Shown one piece after another: positions 4,005 through 33,039 of a DNA stretch of 64,000 nt. The DNA is from an uncultured Rhodospirillales bacterium (GTDB lineage Bacteria > Pseudomonadota > Alphaproteobacteria > CAAGCB01 > CAG-977). How positions within the stretch are numbered: the first letter of the stretch is position 1; each line of letters starts with the position of its first letter. The notes under the pieces were generated by a model. That model worked only from the letters and a program-made list of their open reading frames with translations, was not told where the DNA came from and searched no databases. The DNA lies in the NCBI GenBank assembly GCA_902777205.1, contig CACYSU010000005.1, forward strand, positions 9,362 through 73,361, read 5' to 3'. A program made the translations under genes and the position numbers.

Positions 4005-4994
4005 TCAGCGCGCTTTGTGCGCCAGCCGCCGCATCACGGCCGGATTGATTTTTTCACCGGACTGCGTTTGCGTTTGCGCTTTCGCCGCCATGGCCTTTTC
4101 CGGCGACATAAAGCGGTAGTGTTTGCTTAAATCCTTGAAACCCTCCAACACTTCGGTCGGTCGGTTGGTGTCGTTCATCTGTCCCAAATGTTCCGCCGTC
4201 GTCAGCTTGTAATTCGGATCCTGACAGAAAACCGTGTAGCATCGCATCGTCGGTTCGTCGATGACGGTGCCGCCCTTTTGCCACGCGTAGTTCATTCCCA
4301 ACGTGACGGCCGCCGTTCCGTCCGAACGGATATTGTCGCCGACCATGACGGCGGTTGACGGGTCTTTGACGCCCATATCATCCAGAATTTTCTGCATATT
4401 CTTGGGGTTGGGCTTGTTCGTTTTGGGCGGCAGGACGACCAGTTTATCCCCCAGCGCGTTGCGTAGCTCTTCGGCTTTTCCTTTGACGGGTTTGTGAATG
4501 ACCTGTCCGTCTTTCAAATCGGGCAGGACATACAGGCCGTCGATCATGTCGGCCGTAATGCCCATTTTCGCCAGCCGCGGGACGCAGACGGATTCGCGCG
4601 AATCCGTGTAAAGGACGAACTTTGCGCCCGACGATTTGATTTTATTGATCGTGGCCAGAACGCCTTCGTACAATTCGGCCTTGCTTTTTTCCTTGTCCCA
4701 TTCGTGGAAAATCTTTTCCTGTTCCTTTTCCATTTCGGGCGAGGTCGGCTTCATCGACGGGGTGCAGGCGACATCCATGCGCAGATCCTTGCCGATATAG
4801 GGGCCGGAAATGTGTTTCATGCTGTCGGGAACGTGCGCCAGCATATCCTGTTCCAGATCGGCGCGGTCGCGGCCGTGCAGCTTGGCCAGTTTGTCCATGG
4901 CGGCGTCCAGCGCGTTGCCCCATGCGCCGAATTTGTCTGCGATCGTGTTGTCAATGTCGCTGACGACCAGACTGACGGGTTTCTTATCGGCCAT
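4005..4994 (-). CDS. HAD-superfamily hydrolase with a long C-terminal extension (paralog A)
   Basis: HAD motif I is VVSDIDNTI (DxDxT), motif II is FVLYTDS, then a KPNPK lysine motif and MVGDNIRSD (GDxxxD). A roughly 90-aa basic/Ala-rich tail follows. I prefer the ATG at 4994 (MADKKPVSL...) because AAGGAA sits 7 nt upstream. The ORF track starts at a TTG at 5012. Confidence 0.7.
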   Translation of the reverse strand: MADKKPVSLVVSDIDNTIADKFGAWGNALDAAMDKLAKLHGRDRADLEQDMLAHVPDSMKHISGPYIGKDLRMDVACTPSMKPTSPEMEKEQEKIFHEWDKEKSKAELYEGVLATINKIKSSGAKFVLYTDSRESVCVPRLAKMGITADMIDGLYVLPDLKDGQVIHKPVKGKAEELRNALGDKLVVLPPKTNKPNPKNMQKILDDMGVKDPSTAVMVGDNIRSDGTAAVTLGMNYAWQKGGTVIDEPTMRCYTVFCQDPNYKLTTAEHLGQMNDTNRPTEVLEGFKDLSKHYRFMSPEKAMAAKAQTQTQSGEKINPAVMRRLAHKAR

Positions 4995-5141
4995 GATGAT
5001 TTCCTTTTGCAATGGATGAAACGATTTTTTCCTTTATAGCAGAAAAAACGGGGAAAGAAAAGTGTTTTTTGTCTATAGACGAAAAAGGCGTTCAAAGCGG
5101 AGATTTTTTCCGGTGTTTTGAAGGGGGTGTGGACGAAAAAA

Positions 5142-6926
5142 CTATTTTTCGGCCGCGTCGCCGCATTTTGAAAAATCGACCTTGAACATGGTGTACGGCG
5201 GCGGGGTGTTGAAATCCTCCGTAATGCCGCAGGGCAGATCCTTGCCGGACATCAGCCGCGTCAGCAAACCGTCGTTCCGCGCTTTTTTGAAAAAGGTGTA
5301 GCGTTTGTTCATGTTGTAAAACAGGTCGGGTTCCGCATCCACTTCCAAAAACACCAAAATGGCCTTGATCCGGTGCTTTTTCATCAGCGCGACGCTTTCG
5401 TCCATATCCAGCGAATACAGCATGAAATGGTCGTCAACGATGCCTTCGATATTGCGGTGATAGGGCGTGCCGACGACCGGTTCGTCCAGTTTCCATATGA
5501 TTTCGGGGCCGCTGGACGTGTCGGACAGAACGGCGCCCTCCCGATCCGGCAGATAGGGGGCGACGGTGTCGATCGGCGGGCGGCGCAGAGCCATCATGCG
5601 GTTGACGGAAATGTAGTTGACCGCCAGATACGCGGCGAACAGGACATAGACGGCGGCCAGAAACGCGCCCTTGACCTTGTCGGAACGGGGCGTTTTGTCG
5701 GCGCGCAGCGAAAAGGCGACGGCCAGAATGTACGGCGTGAACAGCGACGACAGGCGCGCGTACCGGATCGACTTCATCGACAGCAGCGTCAAAAACAGCA
5801 GCGGCGGCAGAACGGTGACCAGCATCGCCCTTTTCCTTGCGGGACAAAACGGCAGCAGCGCGATCCCGATGACAAAAACCAGCAGCGACGGCGCCGATCC
5901 CAAAAAGAATCGCACCCAGTCGCGGACGGAGGGCTGCAGTTCGACGATGTTGTCCGCCCAAATGCCTTTGATGATCGGCGGAAAGTGGGGGGCGAAAACG
6001 ACGGCCGGCGTGAAGCACAGCAGCAGCAATCCGGCAAAAGCCCCCGTCAGAAACGCCAGCGCGCCCGCCCTGCGCCAAAAGGAACCGAGCATCCCCTTGT
6101 CCTGCATCAGGGACAGCAGGATCATGGCGGCGGCGGTGAAACCGGCGACGACGACCGTCAAAAAGGACAGCCGCCCGTTGTCGGGGTTGAAGAAACCCTC
6201 GAACGGCGGATTGACGGCCAGACATAGTAACGCCGCCGTGAAATAGTAAAAGCAGAAAACGGCGCAGGCGCGGGCGGAAACCTTTCCCGCCATGAACAGA
6301 ACGGCCAGACCGGTCAGCAACCCGTAGCAGATCAGAATGCCTTCGATTGATGTCCACAGCCCCAGCGCGGCGGCGACGCCCGCGATCCGCAGGTCTTTTT
6401 CATCGTCCGTGAACAGGAAGCGAGCCAGCCCGCCCGCCGTGACGAAACAGAAAAAGGCCGTCAGGGCGTGGTGGTCGGGTTTGATCAGGATGTACGTTTC
6501 CGTGACCGACGGCTGCACGAACAGCAAACACACGGCGATCAGCCGCACGATCGGCCCGACGGCCGGCCGCAGCCCCCAGACCAAAGCGACGGCCGACAAG
6601 GCCAGAACGCCCGTTTGGAAAATGTATCCGCCCCAGAACACGGCTTCTTTCAACGGGAAAAATAAAAAGGCGGGGAGCGAGAAAAACAGCCAGAACAGAT
6701 CCGTGATTCGCGTGAAATGCAGCACTTCGCCGAACGGATAGTTGGAATGCATATACGGCGTTTCCGCCCAGTTTTTCGATTGCAGGAAATCCAGCACGCG
6801 GCGGGCGTGGGTGTAGTTGTCCGTGTCCGGATACCAATCCCCCAGTTCGGGCAGAACCGCCAGCTGGGAAATCAGGACGAACAGGGCGATCAGCAGATAT
6901 TCGTGCTTTTTATAGAAAGCGTACAT
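5142..6926 (-). CDS. GT-C fold polytopic membrane glycosyltransferase (ArnT/PMT- or STT3/PglB-like); substrate unknown
   Basis: 594 aa with more than 10 predicted TM helices and a soluble C-terminal domain. The first extracytoplasmic loop carries DWYPDTDNYTHARR, a DxD...Y...R motif reminiscent of GT-C donors that use polyprenyl-phosphate sugars. Confidence 0.5.
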   Translation of the reverse strand: MYAFYKKHEYLLIALFVLISQLAVLPELGDWYPDTDNYTHARRVLDFLQSKNWAETPYMHSNYPFGEVLHFTRITDLFWLFFSLPAFLFFPLKEAVFWGGYIFQTGVLALSAVALVWGLRPAVGPIVRLIAVCLLFVQPSVTETYILIKPDHHALTAFFCFVTAGGLARFLFTDDEKDLRIAGVAAALGLWTSIEGILICYGLLTGLAVLFMAGKVSARACAVFCFYYFTAALLCLAVNPPFEGFFNPDNGRLSFLTVVVAGFTAAAMILLSLMQDKGMLGSFWRRAGALAFLTGAFAGLLLLCFTPAVVFAPHFPPIIKGIWADNIVELQPSVRDWVRFFLGSAPSLLVFVIGIALLPFCPARKRAMLVTVLPPLLFLTLLSMKSIRYARLSSLFTPYILAVAFSLRADKTPRSDKVKGAFLAAVYVLFAAYLAVNYISVNRMMALRRPPIDTVAPYLPDREGAVLSDTSSGPEIIWKLDEPVVGTPYHRNIEGIVDDHFMLYSLDMDESVALMKKHRIKAILVFLEVDAEPDLFYNMNKRYTFFKKARNDGLLTRLMSGKDLPCGITEDFNTPPPYTMFKVDFSKCGDAAEK

Positions 6927-6992
6927 GAAACCATCCTTTATGCCGTTCGGCCGTAAAGGATACGGAAAAACCGTTCCGGCGTCAAGGCGGCT

Positions 6993-8417
6993 TTACCCGT
7001 TGCCGCCGACGGTGATTTTGGAAATGCGCACGGACGGCTGGCCGACGCCGACGGGGACGGTTTGTCCGCCTTTGCCGCACGACCCGACCCCCTGATCCAA
7101 ACAGGCGTCGGTCGCGACCATGTCGATTGCGTTCATGACTTCGATCCCGCTGCCGATCAGGGTGGCGTCCTTGATCGGGGCGGTGATTTTTCCGTTTTCG
7201 ATCAGGTACGCTTCGGCCGAAGTGAACACGAATTTGCCCGACGTGATATCCACCTGTCCGCCGTGGAACGATTTGGCGAAAACGCCCTTTTTCACCGAAG
7301 CGACCAGTTCGTCGGGATCTTTGTCCCCCGCGGTCATGAACGTGTTCGTCATCCGCACCTGCGGGGCGCAGGCAAAGGATTCGCGCCGCCCGTTGCCCGT
7401 CGGGGCGCGGTTCGTCAGCCGCGCGTTCAGCCGGTCAAGCATATAGTTTTTCAAAATGCCGTCTTCGACCAAAACGGTGCGCTGGGACGGCGTGCCCTCG
7501 TCATCGACGGCGATCGACCCGCGGCGGTCGGGCAGGGTGCCGTCGTCAACGATCGTGATGCCCTTTGCCGTGACCTGTTCGCCCGTTTTGCCGGAAAAGA
7601 CAGAGGATCCCTTGCGGTTGAAATCGCCCTCCAATCCGTGGCCGACGGCTTCGTGCAGCAAAACGCCGCACCATCCGGAACTGAGGACGACGGGCATTTC
7701 GCCGGCGGGGGCGGGGACGGATTCCAAATTGACCAAAGCGGTACGCAGCGCTTCGTCGGCGGCGGATTTCCACACGTTTTCAGCGATGATCCGGTCGTAC
7801 AGGTAACGGCCGCCCAACCCGAACGAACCGCTTTCCAGCCGGTCGCCGTTTTTCACGACGACGCTGATCATCAAATTGACCAGCGGGCGGATGTCGCCGG
7901 ATTCGCCGCCGTCCGCGCGGATGATCTCGACGGCCTGCCATTCGCCGGACAACGCCGCGGACACTTGCGCGACTCTGGCGTCTTTGGCGCGCAGATAGGC
8001 GTCGATTTCCCCCATCAGCGCGACCTTGCGTTCAAAGGGGACGGGCGACAGCGGGTTTTCGTCGGTATATAGCTTTTTCGGCGCGGCGCTGGCGGGGGAA
8101 TACAGCGTTCCGTTCCACCCCGCCTTGACCGGCGCGATGCTGCGCGCGGCGTGTTCCAACGCGTTTTGCGTCAATTCGTTTGAAATGGCGTAGGCGCAGG
8201 TTTCCCCGCAAATCGCGCGCAATCCGAATCCGGCCGTCGCGTCGAACGACGACGTTTTGATCCGCCCGTCGTCCAGCGTCAGCCGTTCGGACAGGCAATG
8301 TTCCAAAAACAGTTCGCCGTCGTCGCATCCGGCCAGCGCGTCTTGAACCGTTTTTTTCGCGCGATCCTTATCCATTTGATTAAAAAGCAAATTGTCGGCG
8401 ACGGTCAAATCGGTCAT
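6993..8417 (-). CDS. tldD: Metalloprotease TldD
   Basis: 474 aa with an HEAVGHGLEGD zinc-binding motif and full-length TldD/PmbA-family similarity. The C-terminus reads GQPSVRISKITVGG. Confidence 0.9.
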   Translation of the reverse strand: MTDLTVADNLLFNQMDKDRAKKTVQDALAGCDDGELFLEHCLSERLTLDDGRIKTSSFDATAGFGLRAICGETCAYAISNELTQNALEHAARSIAPVKAGWNGTLYSPASAAPKKLYTDENPLSPVPFERKVALMGEIDAYLRAKDARVAQVSAALSGEWQAVEIIRADGGESGDIRPLVNLMISVVVKNGDRLESGSFGLGGRYLYDRIIAENVWKSAADEALRTALVNLESVPAPAGEMPVVLSSGWCGVLLHEAVGHGLEGDFNRKGSSVFSGKTGEQVTAKGITIVDDGTLPDRRGSIAVDDEGTPSQRTVLVEDGILKNYMLDRLNARLTNRAPTGNGRRESFACAPQVRMTNTFMTAGDKDPDELVASVKKGVFAKSFHGGQVDITSGKFVFTSAEAYLIENGKITAPIKDATLIGSGIEVMNAIDMVATDACLDQGVGSCGKGGQTVPVGVGQPSVRISKITVGGNG

Positions 8418-8492
8418 AACGTTTCCTTTCTTTTTCGGGAATATCTGTTATATTTAGAACGATTCGCAAAAAAATGCTTTAAGAAAAAAGCG

Positions 8493-8502
8493 TTCGCGCG
8501 AA
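8493..8502. promoter_or_regulatory. Perfect 10-bp palindrome TTCGCGCGAA flanked by an A-run and a T-run in the tldD/motA divergent intergenic region
   Basis: AAAAAAGCG-TTCGCGCGAA-TTTTTTT lies 40 nt upstream of the motA ATG. No gene ends here, so it is more likely an operator than a terminator. Confidence 0.25.
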
Positions 8503-12653: not shown

Positions 12654-13310
12654 TTACAAACCGCACAAAATCGCCGCGCCGCACGCCATGATCGTGCCGC
12701 CCGCGATTTCATGGGCGTATTGTTCCAAACGTTTGAAACGCATCGCGCTGATGCCCAGAACGCCGAACGCGACGGCGATCATCATCGTGGCGATGGTCGC
12801 GACGGAAAAGATGAGCGTCGAGGAAACGACGGCGGAAATGCCCATGACGCTGGCCGCGGTCAGGATCGGCAGCAACGCTTCGCACGGGCCCAGAACGAAA
12901 ATGATGAACAGCACCCAGACGGAAACGCTTTTGCCGTCGGCGGGGGTGATGAAATGCGTGTGTTCCGCGCCGTGTTTGTGCTGCCAGCGGTGTTTCAGCG
13001 CCCACAGCAGGTACGCCGCGCCCAGCCCGATCAGGGCGTAGGCCGCGATGTCGCCGCGGTTGTCTTCGATCCACATGAAATTTTCTTCGCTCAGCCAGCG
13101 GGAAAAGTAAATGAACGCCAGCGCGATCATCAGCGCGCTGACAATATGCCCGATGCCGCACACGAACGTCAGCGCCAGCGTTTTTTTCAGGCTGTATCCG
13201 CGGATCTTGCCAATGGCGACAAAGGGCAGGTAATGGTCGGGACCCGTTATCGTGTGAACGACCGCCGTTAAAAACGCCGTCGCCCACAAAGCCGTCAAAG
13301 TTGCCGTCAT
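12654..13310 (-). CDS. Putative Ni/Co transporter-like membrane protein (NicO/RcnA/UreH-like, with a His-rich loop)
   Basis: 218 aa with about 6 TM helices. It has a GPDHY motif near TM1 and a central His-rich loop (KHRWQHKHGAEHTHF), typical of Ni/Co permease or efflux families. I inferred the family from motifs only. Confidence 0.45.
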   Translation of the reverse strand: MTATLTALWATAFLTAVVHTITGPDHYLPFVAIGKIRGYSLKKTLALTFVCGIGHIVSALMIALAFIYFSRWLSEENFMWIEDNRGDIAAYALIGLGAAYLLWALKHRWQHKHGAEHTHFITPADGKSVSVWVLFIIFVLGPCEALLPILTAASVMGISAVVSSTLIFSVATIATMMIAVAFGVLGISAMRFKRLEQYAHEIAGGTIMACGAAILCGL

Positions 13311-14119
13311 AATTCATTTCCTTTCAAATCAAAATCAAAGCATCCGGAACGGAATCCGTCCAGATCCAAAGTCGTAAAGTCGAATCCCAGCCGTTTCATT
13401 TCCGCGGCGATTTCCGCGGCGCGCGCGGCCAAGGCCGGAATCGCGGGGGCGGACACTTCAATCCGCGCCAGATTTTTATGAACGCGCAGACGCACGTTTT
13501 GAACGTCGGGGAACAGATGTTTTAAAAACGCCTCGCCCTTTTCCACCCGTTCGATCGCGTCTTCGGTCAAAACCGTGTCGTATTCAAACCGCGTCGCCAG
13601 ACACGGGGCGGCGGGTTTCGACGCGGTCGGCAGCCCCAGCCGCGCGGACAGGGCGCGAATGTCGGCCTTTGAAAATCCCGACAGCGGGGAAAGGATTCCG
13701 GATTCCCTCAACGCCTTGCGTCCGGGGCGGTAGGCGTGCGCGTCGTCGCCGTTCGTGCCGTCGATGACGTGTTTGAACCCGTGTTCCGCCGCGTATGCCA
13801 GAAATTGGCCGAAAACCGCCTTTTTGCAATGATAACAGCGATCGACGCGGTTGCGGCGCACTTCGTCGATCGACAGCGGGTTGAACGTGAAAACGCGATG
13901 TTCGACGCCGAACCGTTCGGCAAAATCGGCGGCTTCGGCGGATTCGGCGGGCGGCTGCAGCACCGTCCGCATTGTCAGCGCGACAAGGGGGAACGGCCGT
14001 TCGCGCCGCATATCCGCCAGCACCGCCAGCAAAAGCGAGCTGTCAACCCCGCCCGAAAACGCCAGCGCGATTCCGTCGGCGCAAAGTGGTTCCAGCCGTT
14101 GTTTCAACGCGTCAAGCAT
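13307..14119 (-). CDS. larE: ATP-dependent sacrificial sulfur transferase LarE (PP-loop ATP pyrophosphatase)
   Basis: Contains the PP-loop SGGVDSS and the conserved catalytic Cys in AAPCLATRF. It is 270 aa. Its start overlaps the larC stop by 8 nt. Confidence 0.85.
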   Translation of the reverse strand: MLDALKQRLEPLCADGIALAFSGGVDSSLLLAVLADMRRERPFPLVALTMRTVLQPPAESAEAADFAERFGVEHRVFTFNPLSIDEVRRNRVDRCYHCKKAVFGQFLAYAAEHGFKHVIDGTNGDDAHAYRPGRKALRESGILSPLSGFSKADIRALSARLGLPTASKPAAPCLATRFEYDTVLTEDAIERVEKGEAFLKHLFPDVQNVRLRVHKNLARIEVSAPAIPALAARAAEIAAEMKRLGFDFTTLDLDGFRSGCFDFDLKGNEL

Positions 14120-15350
14120 TGTCGTTTTCCTTTGCCGCGCGCCGCGCCGCGTCGAAAATTTCGCGAAACGGCAGGCCGCAGGATTCCGCCGCCCGTTTGA
14201 CGCTTTCGTATTCGGGATTGTAGCGCGCGATGTCGCCCAGCGTGCATTTTTTGACCTCTATTTCGCCGCAGGGCAGGGCGACGCGCACGATTTCGCGATC
14301 CATGCACCGCCGTTCCACCGCGTATTTGCGCAGCCCGATCGTGGTCGTATTGCGGAAAATGATATCCTCCATCACGGGCAGGCGTTTCGAGGCCGCGACG
14401 ACGCGCAGCATATACGCGGGACGGTTCTTTTTCATAAAGCACGGTTCGAAATGCACGTCCGCCGCGCCCGCCGCGAACAGCTTTTCCATCGCCAATCCCA
14501 GCTCTTCGGCCGTCGAATCGTCAATGTTCGTTTCAATGACGTACATCTGATCCGCGTCCGTTTCGTCGTCGATCAGCATCGCCCGCAAAAAATTCGCGCG
14601 GTGAAAGTCGCGCTTGCCCAATCCGACGCCGGATTTTTTGATCTTGAACGACGCCGGCAGCTTTTCCGCCGTGCGGACGGCCGCGGCGATCGCGATGCCC
14701 GTCGGCGTCACCATTTCCCCGTCAACGTCCGTCGGGCGCAGAGGGACGCCGCGCGATTCGGCGATGTTCAAAACGGCGGGGACGGGCACGGGCAGGACGC
14801 CGTGCTGACAGGTGACGAAACCGCGTCCCTCGTTCAATCCGTCAACGATGACGTTTTTGACGCCCAGATCGTCGATCAAAACGGCGGCGGCGATGATGTC
14901 AACGATGGAATCGACCGCGCCGACTTCGTGAAAATGGACTTCCTCCACCGCGCAGCCGTGGGCTTTGGCTTCGGCCTCGGCGACGATTTGAAAGATTTTT
15001 TTCGCCAGATCGCGCGCCGCGGCGGTGATGTCCGCATGGTCGATGATGTGGAAAACGTCGGCCAAATGGCGGTGTTCGTGAGGGTGATGATCGTGGCTAT
15101 GGTCGTGATCGTGGTCGTGGTCATGGTCATGATCGTGGTGATGTTCCGCGCGCGTCAGCCGCACGTCGAAATCCAGCCCCGAAACGCCGTAGGACGATTT
15201 GCGTTCGACCGCCCAGTCGAATTCCCCCGCGGGCAGGCTGGCCAAAGCGGTTTTCAGCTTTTCGACGCTCGCCCCCAGATCCAGCAAAGCCGCGACGGTC
15301 ATGTCGCCGCTGATGCCGCTTTTGCCTTCCAGATACAGATATTCGGTCAT
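14112..15350 (-). CDS. larC: Nickel-pincer cofactor nickel insertase LarC (DUF111)
   Basis: YLYLEGKSGISGDM N-terminus, the HEVGAVDSIVDIIAA and TTTIGLRKY motifs, and a His-rich stretch (HHHDHDHDHDHDHSHDHHPHEH). I prefer the ATG at 15350, which overlaps the larB stop as ATGA. The ORF track starts at 15377. Confidence 0.85.
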   Translation of the reverse strand: MTEYLYLEGKSGISGDMTVAALLDLGASVEKLKTALASLPAGEFDWAVERKSSYGVSGLDFDVRLTRAEHHHDHDHDHDHDHDHSHDHHPHEHRHLADVFHIIDHADITAAARDLAKKIFQIVAEAEAKAHGCAVEEVHFHEVGAVDSIVDIIAAAVLIDDLGVKNVIVDGLNEGRGFVTCQHGVLPVPVPAVLNIAESRGVPLRPTDVDGEMVTPTGIAIAAAVRTAEKLPASFKIKKSGVGLGKRDFHRANFLRAMLIDDETDADQMYVIETNIDDSTAEELGLAMEKLFAAGAADVHFEPCFMKKNRPAYMLRVVAASKRLPVMEDIIFRNTTTIGLRKYAVERRCMDREIVRVALPCGEIEVKKCTLGDIARYNPEYESVKRAAESCGLPFREIFDAARRAAKENDNA

Positions 15351-16024
15351 TTGTGAATCCTTTGCAAAATTTTGCACGCCTGCACCGCCGCGCCGAAACC
15401 GTTGTCGATGTTGACGACGGAAATCCCTTCGGCGCAGGAATTCAGCATGGTCAATAACGCCGCCAGCCCGTGAAACGACGCGCCGTAACCGACCGATGTC
15501 GGCACCGCGATGACGGGCGCGTCCACCAATCCGGCGACGACGCTTGCCAGCGCGCCTTCCATGCCGGCGACGGCGATGACGACGTCGGCTTGGCGGATCG
15601 CGTCGATTTTCGACAGCAAACGGTGGATGCCCGCGACGCCGACATCAAAGTGCCGGTCAACCGCCGCTCCGAAAAACGCGGCGCAGACGGCGGCTTCCTC
15701 GGCGACGGGCAGGTCGGCCGTTCCGCCCGTGCACACGGCGATCCGGCCGTTCAGGCGTTTTTGTTCGCCGGCGTTCAGCGCGATCGTGCGGGAAGCGGCG
15801 TCGTATCGCGCCGCCACCCCCGCCGATTGAACGAAAGCCGCCTGTTCGGGCGAACAGCGCGTTCCCAGAACCCGACAGCCCTTGTTTGCAAAGGCCGCCA
15901 GTATTTTCGCCAGCTGTTCGTTCGTTTTGCCCGCGCAATAAACGGTTTCGGGCAATCCCGTGCGGTCGGCGCGGGTCGTGTCCAGCTTGGCGAATCCCAA
16001 ATCTTCAAACGCGTTGTCCGTCAT
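15347..16024 (-). CDS. larB: Pyridinium-3,5-biscarboxylic acid mononucleotide synthase LarB (PurE-like)
   Basis: GGTADLPVAEEA, VIAVAGMEGALASVV, VIAVPTSVGYG and VVNIDNGFGAA are the LarB/PurE-like signature blocks. It is 225 aa. Confidence 0.85.
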   Translation of the reverse strand: MTDNAFEDLGFAKLDTTRADRTGLPETVYCAGKTNEQLAKILAAFANKGCRVLGTRCSPEQAAFVQSAGVAARYDAASRTIALNAGEQKRLNGRIAVCTGGTADLPVAEEAAVCAAFFGAAVDRHFDVGVAGIHRLLSKIDAIRQADVVIAVAGMEGALASVVAGLVDAPVIAVPTSVGYGASFHGLAALLTMLNSCAEGISVVNIDNGFGAAVQACKILQRIHK

Positions 16025-16028
16025 GGTT

Positions 16029-17267
16029 TCACCCCTCGAACGTTTTGGCGACTTCTTTCATCCATTGACTGATTTCGATGTGCTGCGGACAATGCTTTTC
16101 GCACATTCTGCACCCGATGCAGGACGACGCCTTGCCGTGTTCCTTGATCAGGTTGGCGTAATACATGCGCTGGGCATTGAACGGTTTGTCCGAACGTTCC
16201 TGCTTTTCCGCGTTGTACAGCGCGAAATAGTCGGGGATCGCGATTTTCATCGGACAGAATTCGACGCAGTACCGGCACGCCGTGCAGGGGATCGCGATTT
16301 CGTCGTGCAAGGTCTTGATCGCTTTTTCGATCGTGCGCGTTTCCGCGTCGTCCAGCGGTTTGAAATTTTGCATATAGGACGTGTTGTCCAACAGCTGTTC
16401 CATATTGCTCATGCCGCTTAAAACCATCATGACGCCGGGCAGGGACGCGACATAGCGGATCGCCCACGACGCGACGGACATATCGGGTTCGGCGTCCTTG
16501 AAAATCTTTTCAACCGACGGGGGTACCATGGCCAGCGAACCGCCCTTGACGGGTTCCATGACGACGACGGGTTTGTTGTATTTCTGCGCGATTTCATAGC
16601 ATTTGCGCGATTGGATGCTGGGGTTGTCCCAGTCGATGTAGTTGATTTGCAGCTGGACGAAATCGACTTCGGGGTGGGCTTTCAACACCTGTTCCAACAA
16701 ATCGGCCTTGTCATGGAACGAAAAACCGATGTTTTTGATTTTGCCTTCTTTTTTCTTCTGCGCGATGAAACCGAAGCAGTCGTATTTGTCAACGTTGGGC
16801 AAAGTCGTCGCGTTGACGTTGTGAACCAGATAGTAATCGAAATAATCCAGTCCCGTTTTTTCCAGCTGTTTGTTGAAAATGGTTTCGCGATCCTCCGCGC
16901 TTTTCAAATAACCGGCGGGCAGCTTGCTGGCGACGGTGAACGTGTTGCGCGGGTGGCGTTTGACCAGCGATTCGCGGATGGCGATTTCGCTTTCATATCC
17001 CATGTACATCCATGCGGTGTCGAAATAGGTGAATCCGCGTTCCATGAACGTGTCCACCATTTTGTTCAGCGTTTCATAGTCGATGGCCGTCTGGTCGTCG
17101 GGGTTTTTCAGCGGCAGGCGCATAAACCCGAACCCCAGTTTGTTTTTGGGGTTGACCTTGTCTTTGACCGATTGCGAAACAGGGATCGTTTCCGCCAGCG
17201 TCAGTTTGGGCAAAGCCGTCAGGGCGAACGTGGCCAGCGTGCTCATCAAAAATTGTCTTCTGTTCAT
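16029..17267 (-). CDS. Tat-exported aldo/keto reductase fused to a C-terminal 4Fe-4S ferredoxin domain
   Basis: The real start is at 17267 ([27 protein letters not shown], a twin-arginine signal) with GGAGG 8 nt upstream. The ORF-track extension to 18305 is an open high-GC frame. The protein has an AKR TIM-barrel ([11 protein letters not shown] ... VMEP) and a C-terminal Cys-rich region ([12 protein letters not shown] ... [12 protein letters not shown]). Confidence 0.75.
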
Positions 17268-17349
17268 ATCGAAACCTCCAAGAATGATATGAAACAGGAT
17301 AGGTTTTAAAGCGAACTTTAAGTCAAGTGTTTTTTTGCAAAAAGGAAAA

Positions 17350-17368
17350 GGGGGCGCGCCCCCTTTTT
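17350..17368. terminator. Rho-independent terminator after rlmI, insulating the upstream edge of the lar operon
   Basis: GGGGGCGCGCCCCC palindromic stem followed by TTTTT, 16 nt downstream of the rlmI stop. Confidence 0.55.
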
Positions 17369-17383
17369 CCAACCGGCCGCGGA

Positions 17384-18592
17384 TCAGTCGATCTGGCAGA
17401 CCAGCATTTTCAAATACGCCGTTTCGGGCAGCAGCGGGTGGACGGGGTGGTCGGGGCCCGCGCCGGCCTGTAAAATGACGCGGCCGGTTTTGCCGGCTTC
17501 GGTCAATCCGCGCATACATTCGGTGAAAAACTCGTCGGGTTTGACATGGTGCGAACACGACCCCAATGCCAGAATGCCGTCTTTTTCCACCAATCCGGCG
17601 GCCAGACGGGCGACTTTGCGGTATCCGCGCAAACCGGCCTGAATGTCCTTTTTGACTTTGGCGAAAGCGGGGGGATCGCAAATCACGACGCCGAATTTTT
17701 CCTTGTCCCTGTTCATATTTTCCAAAACGTCGAAAGCGTTGTCCCTGATCCACGAACATTTGTCCTGCAATCCGTTGGCCGTTGCCGCCATTTGCGCCAA
17801 CGCCAAAGCGTTTTCGGAACGATCGACGCCGATAACCTCTTTGGCGTGGCCGATCCCCGTGTGCAGGGCGAATCCGCCCGCGTAGGTGTAAAAGTCGATG
17901 CACCGTCTGTTCGGCGCCAGACGGCCGACAAAGGAACGGTTTTCGCGCTGGTCGTAAAACCATCCGGTTTTCTGCCCCTCTTTCAAATCGGCGAAAAAGG
18001 AGATGCCGTTTTCGCACACGGGCACAACGTCGGGCAGGGCGCCTTTGGCCACTTCGTACAGCGGATCCAATCCCTCCAGCGCGCGGGCGGAGCTTTCGGC
18101 GCGCAAAACGATGCAGGACGGGCGCAGCACTTCGTCCAGCGCGGCGACGATTTCGTTTTTCAGCGCGTCCGTCCCCGCCGTGTTCAGCTGGCAGGCGACG
18201 ATGTCGTCGAACCGGTCGATGACCAGCCCCGGCAGGCCGTCGCCTTCGGAATGAACCATGCGGTAGAACGGCGAATTGACCAATGCGTCGCGCAATGTGA
18301 CGCACCGGCGGAATTTTTTGGCGAAAAAGGAGGCGTCGATCGCGGTTTGCGGATCGGCCGCCATTTTGCGGAACGAAATCAGCGAATGGGGATTGAACGA
18401 ACCGACTCCGATAAACGTGTCGGCCGCGTCATGCAGGCGAACCAACGTCCCCGCGGGAATGTTTTTGGTTTCGGCGGTCATGTCGATTTCGTTCGAGAAA
18501 ACCCACGGACTGCCGGATTTCGCGCGTTTGGCGCACCCTTGTTTCATCTTTACGACGGGATAATTTGTATTTTTCATGGCGTTTGTGTTCAA
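17384..18592 (-). CDS. rlmI: Class I SAM-dependent 23S rRNA methyltransferase (RlmI/RlmK-like, PUA-like N-terminal domain)
   Basis: 402 aa. An N-terminal PUA-like domain is followed by a Rossmann SAM-binding fold ([18 protein letters not shown]). Confidence 0.7.
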
Positions 18593-25618: not shown

Positions 25619-25621
25619 ATG

Positions 25622-28995: not shown

Positions 28996-29012
28996 TTTTT
29001 AGGATGAGAGAA

Positions 29013-29366
29013 ATGAAACACGAATGTCATTGTCACGAACACCACGAACATCACGAACACGACGGTCGCGAATGCCATTGTCACGGGCATCACGAACATC
29101 ATGACGGCGAATGTTGCTGCCATGACCGCGAAGACTATTCGGCGGTGGAGGAAATGTTCGGATTGAACGATTCCGTTCCCGAAGACGCGCTGTCCCTGCT
29201 GCAGCTGGAAATGAACGAATGTGACGATCTGGCGGAGCTGCTGGGCGTCGGACGCGATCCGGACGTGGACGACATTTTGCAGGAAGCGATCGGCGATTTG
29301 TCGGAAAAAAAGAAAAAGACGCTGATGAATCTGGCGATCATTCTGCACGATTACCTGCCGGATTAA
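29013..29366 (+). CDS. His/Cys-rich putative metal-binding small protein
   Basis: MKHECHCHEHHEHHEHDGRECHCHGHHEHHDGECCCHD, followed by an acidic helical C-terminus. AGGA sits 8 nt upstream. The reading frame overlaps the rsmE 3' end. The ORF track starts at a GTG at 28986. Confidence 0.55.
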   Translation: MKHECHCHEHHEHHEHDGRECHCHGHHEHHDGECCCHDREDYSAVEEMFGLNDSVPEDALSLLQLEMNECDDLAELLGVGRDPDVDDILQEAIGDLSEKKKKTLMNLAIILHDYLPD

Positions 29367-29392
29367 GGCGGGTTGCCGTGAATGAAAGAAAA

Positions 29393-29417
29393 GGCGGAAT
29401 TCCGTTTCCGCCTTTTT
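29393..29417. terminator. Bidirectional rho-independent terminator between the His/Cys-rich gene (+) and rnhA (-)
   Basis: Hairpin GGCGGAA-ttccgt-TTCCGCC followed by TTTTT, with an A-rich 5' flank. Confidence 0.5.
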
Positions 29418-29864
29418 CTATTTCAGCCGTTCGCGCAGGGATTCGATCGCCGCGCGCGCCAACAGGTCGCACCGTTCGTTTTCGGGGTGGCCGGCGTGGC
29501 CTTTCACCCAATGCCAACGCAGCGTGTGCTGTTTGTTCAAATGGTAGATTTCCTGCCATAAATCGCTGTTTTTGACGGGCTTTTTATCCGCCGTGCGCCA
29601 GCTGTTCGCGACCCACCCGCGCAGCCATTCGGTCGCGCCTTTCATCACATACTGGCTGTCCGTGTAAATGTCGGCTTCGCACGCCGTTTTCAACATTTTC
29701 AGCGCGTTGATCACCGCTTTCAATTCCATGCGGTTGTTCGTGGTGGCCTCTTCGCCGCCGTTGATTTCCTTTTCAACGTCTTTATAGCGCAAAACGGCCG
29801 CCCAGCCGCCCAATCCGGGGTTGCCGCTGCACGCGCCGTCCGTAAAAATTTCAATCCGTTTCAT
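29418..29864 (-). CDS. rnhA: Ribonuclease HI
   Basis: [25 protein letters not shown] ... TDSQYV ... [11 protein letters not shown]; 148 aa. The ORF-track 5' extension to 30008 has no RBS support. Confidence 0.9.
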
Positions 29865-29988
29865 GGCCGCTAATCTGGCACGTTTGAACCCGAATGTCGA
29901 GAAGATAAAACAGTCGGCGCATATCGGCTTGATTTTTCGGGGCGGGGATTGATATGATTGCAAAAAAAAACGACGGACGGGGCGGACG

Positions 29989-30873
29989 ATGGCTTTTCCT
30001 TTTTTCACTTGCGGCGGGATGTTCTATTGGATCGACCGGTACGGTTACGCCGGTTGGCGGATTCAGGAATCCATGTGGACGAAGCGGTTCCGTCTGCTTG
30101 ATCCGTTCAACATCCGGCGCGGTTCCGGCTCGTTCGAGCTGTGCTATGACACGATGCAGTATTATTTGCGCACGTGGGAAGTCGCGCCCGTTCCCAAAAA
30201 GGCGGCCGTCATCATTCACGGCCTGTTTCAGCGTCCCGCGAATTATGAAAAAATGGCGCGCGTCCTGTCGAAAAACTATGAACCGATAATTTTCAGCTAT
30301 CCGACCCTGCGATTCGATTTGATGAAATCGGCGCGCGCGCTGAACGCCTTTTTGGATAAAAGACAGGATGTCGCGCAATTCTGTTTCGTCGTTTACGGCA
30401 TGGGCGGGCTGATTTTGCGCCAAGCGATCGAAATGAACCCGCAATGGCTGGAAAAAATCGGGCGCAGCGTGTTTCTGGGCGTGCCGAATCACGGCTACGG
30501 CTGGGCGGAAAAATGGAAAGGCAAGTGGTGGTACAAACTGCTGCTGGGCAAGGCGGGGGAAAACATCCTGCCCGCGACGGCGGAAAAGCTGTTCCCCATG
30601 CACGGCGAATTCGGCGTGATCATGGGCGGCAAGGACGACGCCAAGGGAATCCTGCCGTGGTTCAAACAGGACAACGATGGCATCCTGACGGTCGAATCGG
30701 CCAAACAGGACGGCGCCAAAGAAGAATATCTGGCTTTGGGCAAAACGCATTTCGCCCTGCATCGGGACGACAAGCTTTTAAATATGACGCTGAGCTTTTT
30801 AAACACGGGACGGTTCGGCCGCGGCCAGCGCGTGCGCAAAGAACAGAGCTACACCAGTTTGTGGGAAAGCTAG
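29989..30873 (+). CDS. Alpha/beta-hydrolase-fold protein (lipase/esterase-like, GxGxG nucleophile elbow)
   Basis: [10 protein letters not shown] ... [10 protein letters not shown] (a G-x-nucleophile-x-G-like elbow) ... GILTVESA. The start is uncertain. A different frame at 29954 encodes a lipobox-like LAAGCS but then degenerates. Confidence 0.55.
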
Positions 30874-31670
30874 GCTTTTTTGCCGCGTTCCATATTTTTG
30901 GCCTCGACCCACAAATCTTCCATTTCCTCCAGCGTCGTTTGGTCGAACGGCTGGCGGCGTTTGGTCAGCGTTTCCTCGATATGGGAAAAGCGGCGCTCGA
31001 ATTTGGCGTTGGTGCGCTTTAACGCCTTTTCCGGTTCGATTTTCAATTTTCTGGCCAGATTGACGCACGCGAACAACAGGTCGCCCATTTCGTCCTCGCG
31101 TTCCGATTCATGATCCTTTTGCGCGATTTCGGCGCGCAGTTCGCCGCTTTCCTCGACGATCTTGTCCAGCACCAGATCGGGTTTGTCCCAATCGAATCCG
31201 ACGGTCGCCGCGCGCGCCTGCAACTTATAGGCGCGGGTCGTCGCGGGCAGGGCTTTGGCGATGCCGGACAGGACGCCGGTCTGGTGGTGTTCGGCGCGTT
31301 CGGCCTTTTTGATCTTTTCCCAATCGGGCGGCGTTTTGTCCGTGCCGAAAATGTGCGGGTGGCGGCGGATCATTTTGTCGCAAATGGTGCGCACAACGTC
31401 GGAAAAGTCAAACGCGCCGCGTTCCTGCGCGATGCGGCTGTAAAAAACGATGTGCAGCAGCAAATCGCCCAGCTCTTCGCGCAAAGCGTCCATGTCGTCG
31501 TTCTGCGCGGCGTCGTAAACTTCGTAAGCCTCCTCCAGCGTGTAATCGGAAATGCTTTGGACGGTTTGCACCCTGTCCCATTCGCACCCGTTTTCGGGGT
31601 TGCGCAGGCGCACCATGATGTTCAGCAATTCGTCAACGGAAGCCTTTTCCTTTTCAGCCATTCGATTCAT
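30870..31670 (-). CDS. mazG: Nucleoside triphosphate pyrophosphohydrolase MazG
   Basis: Two MazG domains (EEAYEVYDA...ELGDLLL and EESGELRAEI...EMGDLLF). Confidence 0.9.
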   Translation of the reverse strand: MNRMAEKEKASVDELLNIMVRLRNPENGCEWDRVQTVQSISDYTLEEAYEVYDAAQNDDMDALREELGDLLLHIVFYSRIAQERGAFDFSDVVRTICDKMIRRHPHIFGTDKTPPDWEKIKKAERAEHHQTGVLSGIAKALPATTRAYKLQARAATVGFDWDKPDLVLDKIVEESGELRAEIAQKDHESEREDEMGDLLFACVNLARKLKIEPEKALKRTNAKFERRFSHIEETLTKRRQPFDQTTLEEMEDLWVEAKNMERGKKA

Positions 31671-32004
31671 ACTCCTGTCAGATGTCCGCCGTCACTCTAT
31701 ATATAAAGAGGGGAGGCCGCTGGCAACAGTTTTTAACGGACGACTCAAGTTCTTTTGTCTATTTTGCGGACGTTCACGGGATTTTATTGCGCATTTTCGG
31801 AAAAAGACGGGGCGGAAAGCGGGCGGACGGCGGCGGGCGGAACCATTTTTAAAAGCGCACAACATATTGAAAAGTAATTATTTTTATCATTTTTATGGCA
31901 GGTTGTTCAAAAAAAATGCGTTTCTGGACAAAATGTGCTTGAAAAAAGCGGGAAGCTCCGCTATAAAAAATGTAAATGAAGTTTTTGTAGAAGTGAGGTT
32001 CTAA

Positions 32005-33039
32005 ATGAGCGAAAAGAAACCCGTCAATTTGATCGTCAGCGACATCGACAACACGATCTCCGACTATTTCAACAACTGGGGTTTGGCTTGGGACAAGGGT
32101 ATCGGCGAACTGGCCGCCAGCCGCGGCATGGAAAAAGACGCCCTGTACGCGGACATTCGCGAAAACGCGGACGGTTATGCCCGTTTCCATAACTTCCACG
32201 ACCTGTTGAAGGAAACCCCGTCCCTGAGTTTGGAAGGAAAATCGCCCGAAGAACGCAAACGTTTAGAAAAATCCGACGCGCAGATCTGCCACAACGTGGC
32301 CAAACAGTACCACGAAGGCAACAAATTGTACGAAGGCGTCATCGCCACGGTTCGCAAGGCCAAAGCCGCCGGCGCCCAGTTCGTTCTGTACACGGATTCG
32401 CCCGCTTCCGGCGCCATCGCCCGTATGGCCGACATGAACTTCCCCATCGACCTGGTTGACGGATTGGTTTGCCGCGCCGACGGAACGACCGAAACGGTTG
32501 ACGGCAAGGTCCAGTTCAAAAAAGCCCCCCTGCAGGTGACGGGCGGCCGTTACGACGGTTACCGCGATCAGTTGGTTGCGAAACTGGGCGACAAGCTGGT
32601 CATGAACGCCGGCGACGTTTGGAAACCCAACATGGGCGTGATGCAGTCGATCATGGACCGTCACGGCGCCAAGGCCGAAGAAACCGTCATGGTCGGCGAC
32701 AACATCAAATCCGACGGCGGCGCCGTCCGTTTGGGGTGTCATTTCGCTTGGCAGAAGGAAGGTTCCGAAGTCTGCGCCGAAGCGCAAACCATGTATTCCA
32801 AGATCAACGAAATGTCCGATTACAAGGTCGGTTCCAAAGCGCACTTGGATATGCTGGCGAAAATGTCCGCCGCCGATCCGAAACTGGGTCAGCAGTACAA
32901 GGACAAAATGGTCACTTTGGAAGGCGGATTCAAGGATTTGAACAAATACTTCCGCTTCCAGTCCGCGGAAAAATCCAAAGACCAGTCCAAAGCGATGGTT
33001 ATGGCTTCCGCTCTGCGCGCGAAACAGGCCGGCCGCTGA
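32005..33039 (+). CDS. HAD-superfamily hydrolase with a long C-terminal extension (paralog B)
   Basis: MSEKKPVNLIVSDIDNTISD, FVLYTDS, VWKPNMG and MVGDNIKSDG. It is colinear with the 4005-4994 protein, including the Ala/Lys-rich tail. The RBS is GAGG. Confidence 0.7.
   Translation: MSEKKPVNLIVSDIDNTISDYFNNWGLAWDKGIGELAASRGMEKDALYADIRENADGYARFHNFHDLLKETPSLSLEGKSPEERKRLEKSDAQICHNVAKQYHEGNKLYEGVIATVRKAKAAGAQFVLYTDSPASGAIARMADMNFPIDLVDGLVCRADGTTETVDGKVQFKKAPLQVTGGRYDGYRDQLVAKLGDKLVMNAGDVWKPNMGVMQSIMDRHGAKAEETVMVGDNIKSDGGAVRLGCHFAWQKEGSEVCAEAQTMYSKINEMSDYKVGSKAHLDMLAKMSAADPKLGQQYKDKMVTLEGGFKDLNKYFRFQSAEKSKDQSKAMVMASALRAKQAGR

What the first reader, a model, noticed from the sequence alone, without database searches (positions are those of the whole stretch)
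4005..33039. Two divergent paralogous HAD-family hydrolases with long basic C-terminal extensions, about 27 kb apart
The proteins at 4005-4994 (-) and 32005-33039 (+) are colinear along their whole length. They share the N-terminus (KKPV.L.VSDIDNTI.D), motif II (FVLYTDS), the K and GDNI.SDG motifs, and the Ala/Lys/Gln-rich tail (...KAMAAKAQTQ versus ...SKAMVMASALRAKQAG). Yet they are clearly diverged, so this is not a recent duplication. At about 330 aa, with a roughly 130-aa cap insertion and a tail, they are not a standard housekeeping phosphatase. Both sit behind AT-rich intergenic regions. Paired HAD paralogs plus a secreted ankyrin protein in the same window hint at host-interaction or accessory metabolism.
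Basis: seen in the sequence. Interest (0 to 1): 0.5.

Follow-up and report, generated by a model that had tools for sequence, protein, structure and literature searches.

The report
Paired HAD phosphatases with shared tail
Two anciently duplicated phosphatase genes of an uncultured gut alphaproteobacterium end in a short basic tail that unrelated enzymes of the same bacterial group also carry, so the tail looks like an address label, possibly for protein export.

Summary
ORFs 4005-4994(-) and 32005-33039(+) are colinear HAD hydrolases (38% identity, E 5e-55). All four catalytic motifs are intact and the predicted fold is a confident HAD-IA fold with a C1 cap. No characterised subfamily model reaches its cut-off.

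The duplication is old. 27 of 28 related species genomes, all uncultured gut or rumen Alphaproteobacteria, keep both copies.

- Copy B is followed by a conserved 120-aa acidic protein of unknown fold (33227-33589). The same pairing recurs in deeply diverged relatives.
- The "basic extension" is a variable polar linker plus a patterned end: a hydrophobic block, then basic residues, then G/S-R at the C-terminus. The same end sits on unrelated proteins of this clade (a PepN paralog, PepF, many HExxH proteins), so it looks portable.

One relative lies in an operon virD4-HAD-partner-helicase inside a virB cluster. The clade also keeps a VirD4-like coupling protein with an acidic C-terminus.

My best reading is active small-molecule phosphatases addressed by a coupling-protein-type signal. 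That step is inferred. No virB genes were seen in the gut-clade sequence I held, and the substrate is unknown. Interest is moderate.

The parts
4005..4994 (-). HAD-A gene: 329-aa HAD-IA type phosphatase paralog (stop codon included)
4944..4958 (-). HAD-A motif I DIDNT (D13 nucleophile, D15 general acid/base)
   Evidence: Translation. D13, D15 and T17 are invariant in 29 family members.
4614..4943 (-). HAD-A C1 cap region (residues 18-127). It differs from copy B in the loop at residues 54-70.
   Evidence: Alignment. Helices 21-40, 44-53, 71-76, 86-103 and 112-121 in the model.
4599..4613 (-). HAD-A motif II LYTDS
4407..4415 (-). HAD-A motif III lysine (K194, KPN)
4317..4340 (-). HAD-A motif IV GDNIRSDG (D220, D225 bind Mg2+)
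4008..4103 (-). HAD-A tail: polar linker plus the terminal peptide NPAVMRRLAHKAR (4008-4046)
   Evidence: Charge +5, pLDDT about 60. The pattern is conserved across the family.
4995..5141 (.). AT-rich (GC 0.37) region upstream of HAD-A, with the Shine-Dalgarno AAGGAA
32005..33039 (+). HAD-B gene: 344-aa paralog (stop codon included)
   Evidence: ORF. 38% identical to A, E 5e-55. Pfam HAD families.
32041..32055 (+). HAD-B motif I DIDNT
32386..32400 (+). HAD-B motif II LYTDS
32623..32631 (+). HAD-B motif III KPN
32695..32718 (+). HAD-B motif IV GDNIKSDG
32965..33036 (+). HAD-B tail: linker plus the terminal peptide VMASALRAKQAGR (32998-33036)
   Evidence: Charge +3.8. Pattern.
31671..32004 (.). 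AT-rich (GC 0.42) divergent intergenic region between mazG and HAD-B
   Evidence: The mazG <- -> HAD-B arrangement is conserved in nearly all B loci.
33227..33589 (+). Partner gene: 120-aa acidic helical protein (pI 4.05, charge -17.5). TTG start with AAGGAA upstream. No + strand terminator-like site between it and HAD-B.

Best explanation
Shown: A and B are ancient paralogs of a lineage-restricted HAD-IA family with a C1 cap and a DxDxT motif.

Inferred from established HAD chemistry: they are Mg2+-dependent phosphomonoesterases.
- D13 forms the aspartyl-phosphate intermediate.
- D15 acts as general acid/base.
- T130 and K194 hold the phosphate.
- D220 and D225 hold Mg2+.
- The closed helical cap points to small phosphorylated metabolites as substrates.
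- The cap loops that differ between A and B point to two different substrates.

Shown: each enzyme ends in a flexible polar linker of variable length plus a short patterned peptide. The pattern is a hydrophobic block at -12 to -6, basic residues at -9 to -3, G/S/T/Q at -2, and Arg at or near the C-terminus, with no acidic residue. The same end occurs on unrelated, signal-peptide-less proteins of the same gut alphaproteobacterial clade. It therefore behaves as a portable C-terminal address, not as part of the catalytic fold.

Inferred, as the most likely reader: the clade's conserved VirD4-type coupling protein, whose own C-terminus is strongly acidic. On this reading the tail is a type-IV-secretion-style translocation signal and the two HADs are exported or translocated enzymes.

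Inferred: the 120-aa acidic protein encoded after B is a dedicated binding partner (chaperone, adaptor or inhibitor).
For: Enzyme:
- All four HAD motifs are invariant across 29 members.

Old duplication: A and B are each monophyletic, and 27 of 28 species genomes with A also hold B. GC3 of 0.73 equals the genome value.

Tail as a module:
- The tail-less wider family comprises 423 cluster representatives at E<1e-10 that match only profile positions about 5-305.
- The class pattern is conserved, while the linker varies from 13 to 44 aa and is only 11-15% identical.
- A PSSM of the last 14 aa scores >=8 in 28 of 924 non-HAD gene-like ORFs, against 12 of 1352 overlapping ORFs (p = 1.4e-4). The hits fall into 14 families.
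- These include a PepN paralog of 939-962 aa that sits beside a tail-less 887-aa copy, PepF, and 12 DUF6782-like HExxH proteins.

Link to the coupling protein (T4CP):
- L038 has virB8, virB9, virB11, an SLT gene, virD4, the HAD, the partner and a TraI-like helicase, with gaps of 70 nt or less from virD4 through the helicase.
- VirD4 homologs lie 2.5-3 kb from HAD genes in L029/L087, L052 and L086.
- The T4CP family is widespread in the same MAG clade.
- Its last 40 aa have a median charge of -10, and Walker motifs are kept in most members.
- Positively charged or hydrophobic C-terminal tails are the known VirB/D4 signal (PMC6509941; the consensus is quoted in PMC3417381).
- HAD-type T4SS effectors exist: Ceg4 and Lem4 (PMC10720952).

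Partner: it follows the HAD in B loci and in L029, L038, L083 and L089 at 36-47% identity.
Against: - No virB or trb channel genes were found in about 1.4 Mb of gut-clade sequence held, nor within 10 kb of any gut-clade T4CP. Only L038, which is labelled Rhodobacterales, has them.
- The T4CP was not shown in the window's own genome.
- Both HAD genes sit in core housekeeping neighbourhoods and are conserved like housekeeping genes.
- Tail enrichment is modest and partly non-independent. Against control loci p is 0.07 at score >=8, and 12 of the 28 hits belong to one family.
- A basic C-terminus is not specific. RNase R and TopA in the window also end basic. PMC3417381 documents a protein with such a tail that turned out to be a T1SS substrate.
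- C1-capped HADs are typically cytoplasmic metabolite phosphatases.
- Distant partner homologs P0275 and P0279 are not next to a HAD.
- No activity or export data exist.
Confidence: 0.42

Rival explanations
1. Ordinary cytoplasmic metabolite phosphatases. The two paralogs are housekeeping or 'house-cleaning' HAD-IA enzymes with different small-molecule substrates. The tail is a disordered basic appendage with no addressing role, serving at most solubility, oligomerisation or binding of the acidic neighbour. The resemblance to tails on other proteins reflects clade-wide compositional habit.
For: - The chromosomal context is core, and both copies are retained in 27 of 28 species.
- GC3 is native.
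- The fold is a generic HAD-IA fold nearest PH1655, NANP and phosphoglycolate phosphatases.
- The context of A is not conserved beyond near relatives.
- No secretion genes lie in the window.
- Tail enrichment against control loci is only p = 0.07 at score >=8.
Against: - The end pattern is kept across A, B and basal members that share only 32-40% identity, while the adjoining linker is free to vary.
- The same end is added to one PepN paralog but not to the other in the same locus.
- The wider HAD family lacks the tail.
- L038 places the HAD and partner inside a virD4 operon.
Confidence: 0.25
2. The tail is a C-terminal degron. It is a basic/hydrophobic end on a flexible linker, resembling the MuA-type 'C-motif 2' recognised by ClpX (recalled from my own knowledge of the Flynn et al. 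2003 classes, not tested here). It marks these hydrolases for regulated proteolysis, and the acidic partner shields it.
For: - The tail is unstructured (pLDDT about 60), basic and hydrophobic at its end, and carries no acidic residues.
- Bearers are mostly potentially harmful hydrolases: peptidases and phosphatases.
- A LonC-like protease lies near the T4CP island in some loci.
Against: - No direct evidence exists.
- This reading does not explain the virD4-HAD-partner operon or the acidic T4CP C-termini.
- A degron does not need a linker of 13-44 aa.
Confidence: 0.1
3. Effector-immunity pair. The HAD is an interbacterial toxin, for example one that depletes a phosphorylated metabolite or nucleotide, delivered by contact-dependent secretion. 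The small acidic protein encoded immediately downstream is its immunity protein or inhibitor.
For: - An enzyme gene is followed within 4-190 nt by a small, very acidic cytoplasmic protein (charge -17.5), and this pairing is conserved across deep divergence.
- L029 has a tandem array HAD-partner-HAD-HAD that includes a copy with a mutated catalytic Asp. This looks like diversification of an effector locus.
Against: - Copy A has no adjacent partner in any locus.
- Both HADs are single-copy and conserved across the clade, not variable.
- No HAD phosphatase toxin is known to me.
Confidence: 0.1
4. Envelope- or lipid-linked phosphatases. The basic tail anchors the enzymes to the anionic inner-membrane surface, where they dephosphorylate a lipid A, LPS or lipid-carrier intermediate.
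For: - Distant tail-less homologs (21-26% identity) in Oligoflexales and Bdellovibrio-like MAGs sit in a conserved operon: ABC-ATPase, LpxL-family acyltransferase (PF03279, 3e-35), HAD. This holds in 16-17 of 20 loci.
- Copy A follows a 594-aa multi-pass membrane protein in near relatives.
Against: - The helical hydrophobic moment of the terminal 12 aa is not above shuffles (0.31 against 0.35), and the hydrophobic residues are small. It is therefore unlike MinD or FtsA membrane-targeting helices.
- The lpxL linkage is absent from the tailed clade.
- KdsC and GmhB models score far below their cut-offs.
- The 594-aa neighbour has no recognisable family.
Confidence: 0.06

Closest known systems
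HAD superfamily subfamily IA phosphatases of the CTE7 group (Pyrococcus PH1655, PDB 2hoq; N-acylneuraminate-9-phosphatase NANP/HDHD4, PDB 2gfh, 2w4m, 4knw)
   Same: - Rossmannoid core with a C1 four-helix cap.
- The same four catalytic motifs.
- TIGR02253 is the best NCBIfam hit.
   Different: - Only 13-19% identity.
- TIGR02253 scores 42.8/31.4 bits against a cut-off of 169.75.
- About 100 extra residues: a longer cap loop, a hairpin between motifs II and III, an insertion after motif IV, and a 24-32 aa tail.
- An associated acidic partner gene.
- Unknown substrate.
Substrates of VirB/VirD4 type IV secretion systems that carry short positively charged C-terminal signals (Agrobacterium VirE2/VirF type, R-X7-R-X-R-X-R; the tail of Bartonella Beps)
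   Same: - An uncleaved, unstructured C-terminal end rich in Arg/Lys with hydrophobic residues.
- No N-terminal signal peptide.
- A gene next to virD4 in one relative (L038).
- A small acidic protein encoded alongside, as VirE1 is for VirE2. The VirE1 comparison is from my own knowledge.
   Different: - No BID domain, and the Agrobacterium consensus is not matched exactly.
- The pattern here is a hydrophobic block, then basic residues, then G/S-R at the C-terminus.
- No VirB channel has been shown in the gut clade.
- Translocation is untested.
Legionella Dot/Icm effectors Ceg4 (Lpg0096) and Lem4 (Lpg1101), HAD-domain phosphotyrosine phosphatases (PMC10720952)
   Same: A HAD-fold phosphatase used as a type IV secreted effector, with a C-terminal targeting part beyond the catalytic domain.
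   Different: - A different secretion type (IVB).
- The C-terminal parts are a transmembrane or PI4P-binding domain, not a short basic peptide.
- No sequence relationship beyond the superfamily level.
Uncharacterised wider HAD subfamility found here (423 cluster representatives at E<1e-10, for example in Oligoflexales, Bdellovibrio-like and Polynucleobacter MAGs)
   Same: The same extended architecture through profile position about 305, including the insertion after motif IV.
   Different: - 21-26% identity, with no basic tail and no partner.
- Often placed in an ABC-ATPase, lpxL-like, HAD operon.
- Some are fused to transmembrane segments, OmpA or an Acid_phosphat_B domain.

Membership tests
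HAD superfamily phosphatase | Motif I DxDx(T/V) with a nucleophile Asp and an Asp at +2 | tested here: met
   DIDNT in both copies. D13, D15 and T17 are invariant in 29 sequences.
HAD superfamily phosphatase | Motif II Ser/Thr, motif III Lys, motif IV (G/S)Dx3-4(D/E) | tested here: met
   LYTDS (T130). K194 in A and K207 in B. GDNI[RK]SDG with D220 and D225 invariant.
HAD superfamily phosphatase | Rossmannoid fold with a cap; subfamily I means a helical C1 cap inserted just after motif I | tested here: met
   [not shown]
HAD superfamily phosphatase | Mg2+-dependent phosphoryl-transfer activity | not testable with these tools
   This needs an enzyme assay.
TIGR02253 (CTE7) / NANP-type HAD | Score at or above the curated family cut-off (169.75 bits) | tested here: not met
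   42.8 bits for A and 31.4 bits for B. Distant relatives reach at most 81.5 bits.
Phosphoglycolate phosphatase (Gph; TIGR01449, NF009695) | Score at or above the equivalog cut-off (180 / 225 bits) | tested here: not met
   29.9 bits or less for A and 16.1 bits or less for B.
LPS-pathway HAD-IIIA phosphatases (GmhB; KdsC) | Score at or above the cut-off, capless C0 architecture | tested here: not met
   GmhB models score 16.3 bits or less against cut-offs of 149.6-178. A C1 cap is present. No KdsC model appears in the hit list.
VirB/VirD4 type IV secretion substrate | Uncleaved C-terminal signal of positively charged and/or hydrophobic residues, with no Sec signal | tested here: met
   Tails carry +3.8 and +5.0. 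The pattern is a hydrophobic block, then basic residues, then G/S-R, with 0-4% acidic residues in the last 12 positions. The N-termini run straight into motif I. This is a sequence property only.
VirB/VirD4 type IV secretion substrate | Cognate coupling protein (VirD4/TraG) in the same organism | tested here: inconclusive
   The T4CP family is conserved in the clade: 107 hits, about 50 clusters at 48-100% identity. It abuts the HAD-B locus in L052 and L086. It is absent from the window and was not shown for the window's genome.
VirB/VirD4 type IV secretion substrate | VirB/Trb translocation channel genes in the genome | tested here: inconclusive
   tblastn with L038 VirB8, VirB9, a candidate VirB10 ORF (no Pfam hit) and VirB11 found nothing in the other held loci or the window. 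No virB gene lies within 10 kb of gut-clade T4CPs. Whole genomes were not searchable.
VirB/VirD4 type IV secretion substrate | Demonstrated T4SS-dependent translocation | not testable with these tools
   This needs a reporter-fusion assay.
Legionella HAD effectors (Ceg4/Lem4) | Specific sequence or fold similarity beyond the HAD superfamily | tested here: not met
   [not shown]
Membrane-targeting amphipathic helix (MinD/FtsA type) | Helical hydrophobic moment clearly above the expectation from composition | tested here: not met
   Mean muH is 0.31 for the terminal 12 aa against 0.35 +/- 0.18 for shuffles.

The most novel reading that the evidence does not exclude
Uncultured gut and rumen Alphaproteobacteria possess a previously unrecognised export or targeting system. 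It is centred on a chromosomal VirD4-like coupling protein with an acidic tail. It reads a shared C-terminal signal: a hydrophobic block, then basic residues, then G/S-R at the C-terminus. Its cargo would be a repertoire of signal-peptide-less hydrolases: the two core HAD phosphatases with a dedicated acidic chaperone or immunity protein, a PepN paralog, PepF and a large DUF6782 HExxH family. The tail would then allow genome-wide prediction of effectors in a clade with no cultured member.
Probability: 0.33. Interest if true: 0.75.

Novelty: new variant of a known kind. Interest (0 to 1): 0.52.

Why it matters
As plain HAD phosphatases these genes would be routine. Two things give them value.

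First, the finding defines a compact, clade-restricted module that no family library describes: a HAD enzyme, a linker, a patterned C-terminal peptide and a small acidic partner.

Second, the same C-terminal peptide on unrelated hydrolases offers a testable handle on how little-known gut Alphaproteobacteria address proteins, possibly through a type IV coupling protein. These bacteria have no cultured member. One published view holds that the related order Rs-D84 is partner-dependent (PMC12306168), though I did not establish that the window belongs to that order.

If the tail is a secretion signal, the effector set of the whole clade could be read from sequence. The two HADs would also add a new kind of HAD effector beside Legionella Ceg4 and Lem4.

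Tried and rejected
- **Specific HAD subfamily assignment.** Pfam, NCBIfam, PDB sequence and profile searches gave only generic hits or hits below cut-off.
- **Function from neighbours of A.** The context changes between genera: tldD plus the 594-aa membrane protein; xthA-like plus CorC; DUF6782 plus tgt-dciA-atp. No operon logic emerged.
- **The 594-aa membrane neighbour as a GT-C glycosyltransferase.** This was my guess. No Pfam, NCBIfam or PDB hit supports it even at E = 10, so I dropped it. The equally long 594-aa protein near the T4CP in L092 is unrelated.
- **Amphipathic membrane helix.** Rejected on hydrophobic moment.
- **FtsZ C-terminal-peptide mimicry and an SspB-XB-like ClpX tether.** PAFLRR against PAVMRRL / PAFMKKL. 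These came from memory and I had no way to test them. I kept only the degron idea, as a rival.
- **Plasmid-borne relatives.** PLSDB holds only generic HADs at 24-27% identity and no partner homolog.
- **Linking a T4CP to the window's genome through cluster accessions.** No accessions were returned.
- **afdb50 fold library.** Unavailable.
- **Ankyrin protein.** Not found by regex.
- **Literature.** Nothing on DUF6782, or on RF32 with type IV secretion. A search for 'Acetobacter sp. CAG 977' also found no paper.

Full report
**1. The observation**

The two ORFs are real.
- Copy A is 4005-4994(-), 329 aa from its ATG. An upstream in-frame TTG at 5012 is unlikely to be the start: homologs begin MADKKP/MSDKKP, and AAGGAA precedes the ATG.
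- Copy B is 32005-33039(+), 344 aa.
- BLASTP aligns them end to end at 38% identity, E = 5e-55.
- The cores have pI 6.2. The tails carry +5.0 (A) and +3.8 (B).
- Both genes follow AT-rich intergenic DNA: GC 0.37 and 0.42 against 0.577 for the window.
- Both have Shine-Dalgarno sequences, and their GC3 of 0.73 matches neighbouring core genes. They are therefore resident genes, not recent imports.

**2. What the proteins are**

Pfam finds only generic HAD families. Every NCBIfam subfamily or equivalog model is far below its cut-off; the best, TIGR02253/CTE7, scores 42.8 and 31.4 bits against 169.75.

An AlphaFold2 model of A built on a 29-sequence family alignment is very confident (pLDDT 93.4, pTM 0.88). 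Only the last 30 or so residues are uncertain, at pLDDT about 60.
- Profile and sequence searches of the PDB agree.

In the family alignment D13, D15, T17, D131, K194, G219, D220, D225 and G226 are invariant, and T130 is nearly so. From established HAD chemistry these are intact Mg2+-dependent phosphotransferases. The Asp at +2 makes them phosphatases or mutases rather than dehalogenases.

The cap is about 110 aa, not 130. Most of what looks like a C-terminal extension is the normal last strand and helix of HAD-IA, interrupted by an insertion. The real appendage is the last 24-32 residues.

A and B differ most in a cap loop (A residues 54-70) and in inserts between motifs II and III. Those are the places that usually set substrate choice.

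**3. Distribution**

A search of 5.8 billion proteins found only 97 clusters, all from uncultured Alphaproteobacteria of gut, rumen or faecal metagenomes.

In one-genome-per-species contigs the window matches 'Alphaproteobacteria bacterium UBA6324'. There A and B lie on one contig about 27 kb apart, as L001 and L047.

Of 28 species genomes with an A-type gene, 27 also have a B-type gene. The remaining one, JBFXJJ, has other diverged copies.

A rough neighbour-joining tree shows A and B each monophyletic, with a few other tailed members branching around them. The duplication therefore predates the radiation of the clade.

A profile search of 1.84 billion cluster representatives shows a wider, uncharacterised HAD subfamily: 992 hits at E<1e-3 and 423 at E<1e-10. 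It shares the architecture up to profile position about 305 but lacks the tail.

**4. Neighbourhood**

The window is core chromosome: uvrA, tldD, lar genes, rpoD, dnaG, topA, dprA, plsY, rnr, prfC, mazG.

The context of A changes between genera and is uninformative.

The context of B is stable: mazG divergent upstream, then B, then a 120-aa ORF (33227-33589), DUF502 and prfC.

The 120-aa protein:
- is very acidic (pI 4.05, charge -17.5);
- is restricted to the same clade, with 41 clusters;
- is predicted helical with good confidence (pLDDT 86);

Its homologs follow HAD genes in deeply diverged members:
- L029/L087, in a tandem array HAD-partner-HAD-HAD;
- L038;
- L083 and L089, at 36-37% identity.

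HAD plus partner is therefore an old two-gene module. More distant partner homologs stand alone.

**5. The tail**

Across the family the tail has three parts:
- a short S.EK start;
- a polar K/Q/T/A linker of very variable length (13-44 aa, 11-15% pairwise identity);
- a terminal dozen residues whose chemical pattern is kept, although identity is only 23-29%.

The pattern is hydrophobic at -12 to -6, basic at -9 to -3, G/S/T/Q at -2 and Arg at -1, with essentially no acidic residue. Its helical hydrophobic moment is not above shuffles (0.31 against 0.35). This argues against a membrane-binding amphipathic helix.

I built a position matrix from the last 14 residues and scanned the C-termini of all ORFs of at least 100 aa in the gut-clade loci and the window.

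| Set | ORFs scoring >=8 | Comparison with the non-HAD set |
|---|---|---|
| Non-HAD gene-like ORFs | 28 of 924 | - |
| Overlapping, presumably non-coding ORFs | 12 of 1352 | p = 1.4e-4 |
| Genes in control loci (Oligoflexales and others) | 3 of 257 | p = 0.07 |

The hits fall into 14 families. They include:
- a PepN (M1) paralog of 939-962 aa, next to a tail-less 887-aa PepN in the same locus;
- PepF (M3);
- twelve diverged DUF6782-like HExxH proteins;
- a P-loop protein encoded directly after HAD-A in some genomes;
- several unknowns.

Nearly all lack an N-terminal signal peptide.

The enrichment is real but modest and partly non-independent, because orthologs are counted. I therefore treat 'portable address' as well supported but not proven. 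No other tailed protein lies in the window itself.

**6. A candidate reader**

In L038, a high-GC MAG labelled Rhodobacterales, a family member and its partner sit in the order virB8, virB9, virB11, SLT, virD4, HAD, partner, TraI-like helicase. Gaps from virD4 through the helicase are 70 nt or less, or the genes overlap.

Homologs of that VirD4 (35-41% identity) lie 2.5-3 kb from HAD genes in L029/L087 and in the gut-clade loci L052 and L086.

This coupling-protein family is widespread in the same kind of MAGs: 107 hits, about 50 clusters at 48-100% identity. It belongs to a conserved island:
- PepN (tailed);
- an unknown protein of about 350-370 aa;
- a pentapeptide-repeat protein ending ...RVRVKRQRQKQRS;
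- the T4CP.

The last 40 residues of the gut-clade T4CPs are acidic, with a median charge of -10 and a minimum of -22. Walker motifs are kept in most.

Short positively charged or hydrophobic C-terminal ends are the accepted recognition signal for VirD4-type coupling proteins (PMC6509941; the Agrobacterium consensus is quoted in PMC3417381). HAD-fold effectors are known in Legionella (Ceg4 and Lem4; PMC10720952).

Against this reading:
- I saw no virB or trb channel genes in any gut-clade sequence held, about 1.4 Mb.
- I could not show the T4CP in the window's own genome.
- PMC3417381 itself shows that a basic tail can mislead.

**7. Verdict**

| Claim | Status |
|---|---|
| Intact paralogous HAD-IA phosphatases of an undescribed, clade-restricted subfamily, from an ancient duplication | Shown |
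| A conserved acidic partner | Shown |
| A patterned C-terminal peptide shared with unrelated proteins | Shown |
| The peptide is an address read by the VirD4-like coupling protein | Inferred, about 0.4 |
| Substrates | Unknown |

Rivals are plain cytoplasmic phosphatases with an inert tail (0.25), a proteolysis degron (0.1), an effector-immunity pair (0.1) and membrane- or LPS-linked phosphatases (0.06). The last rival is suggested only by distant tail-less relatives that sit after an lpxL-like gene.

The finding is a new variant of a known kind and is of moderate interest. It would rise if the tail proves to be a secretion signal.

Noticed in passing
[not shown]
   Followed up: yes
window 5142-6926 (-): A 594-aa multi-pass membrane protein upstream of HAD-A with no hit in Pfam, NCBIfam or PDB sequences even at E = 10. 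It is conserved in this position only in nearer relatives.
   Followed up: partly
window 13307-18305 (-): A lar-like cluster: a PP-loop LarE-like gene, a LarC nickel-insertion gene (PF01969, 2e-133) and an AIRC/LarB-like gene. It lies next to a 758-aa fusion of an aldo-keto reductase with a 4Fe-4S domain.
   Followed up: no
L029 8562-12087 (= L087 16183-19708): A tandem array HAD-partner-HAD-HAD. The third copy has motif I DVANT, so the general acid/base Asp is replaced by Ala. It may be an inactive or re-purposed paralog.
   Followed up: partly
L038 1972-12957: A virB8, virB9, virB11, SLT and virD4 cluster with a family HAD, the partner homolog and a TraI-like helicase directly downstream of virD4. 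The VirD4 itself ends in an acidic stretch followed by ...HLQSARAGR.
   Followed up: yes
L084/L092 1-12223; L088 4518-12187; L052 707-7502: A conserved island in gut Alphaproteobacteria: PepN (tail-less), a 313-aa protein, a Slam/SlipAM-like protein, PepN (tailed, 950-962 aa), a roughly 370-aa unknown, a pentapeptide-repeat protein ending ...RVRVKRQRQKQRS, a VirD4-like T4CP with an acidic C-terminus, and FprA. No virB genes lie within 10 kb.
   Followed up: partly
L086 3823-6659: The tail of the PepN paralog is a separate 54-aa ORF just after an 883-aa PepN. This could be a frameshift, an in-frame stop or an assembly error.
   Followed up: no
L057-L077 (e.g. L057 8111-10903): Distant tail-less HAD relatives in Oligoflexales, Bdellovibrio-like and Polynucleobacter MAGs lie in a conserved operon: ABC-ATPase, LpxL-family lipid A acyltransferase, HAD.
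   Followed up: partly
L042 11130-11700: Repeated units of about 60 nt and a run of N lie just downstream of HAD-B, where the partner gene is expected. The nature of the repeats was not examined.
   Followed up: no
L087 1-2444: Cas9-like (RuvC_III/HNH) and Cas1 genes lie about 8 kb from the T4CP in the genome that has the HAD array.
   Followed up: no
window, all frames: Simple pattern scans found no ankyrin-repeat consensus in any frame.
   Followed up: partly
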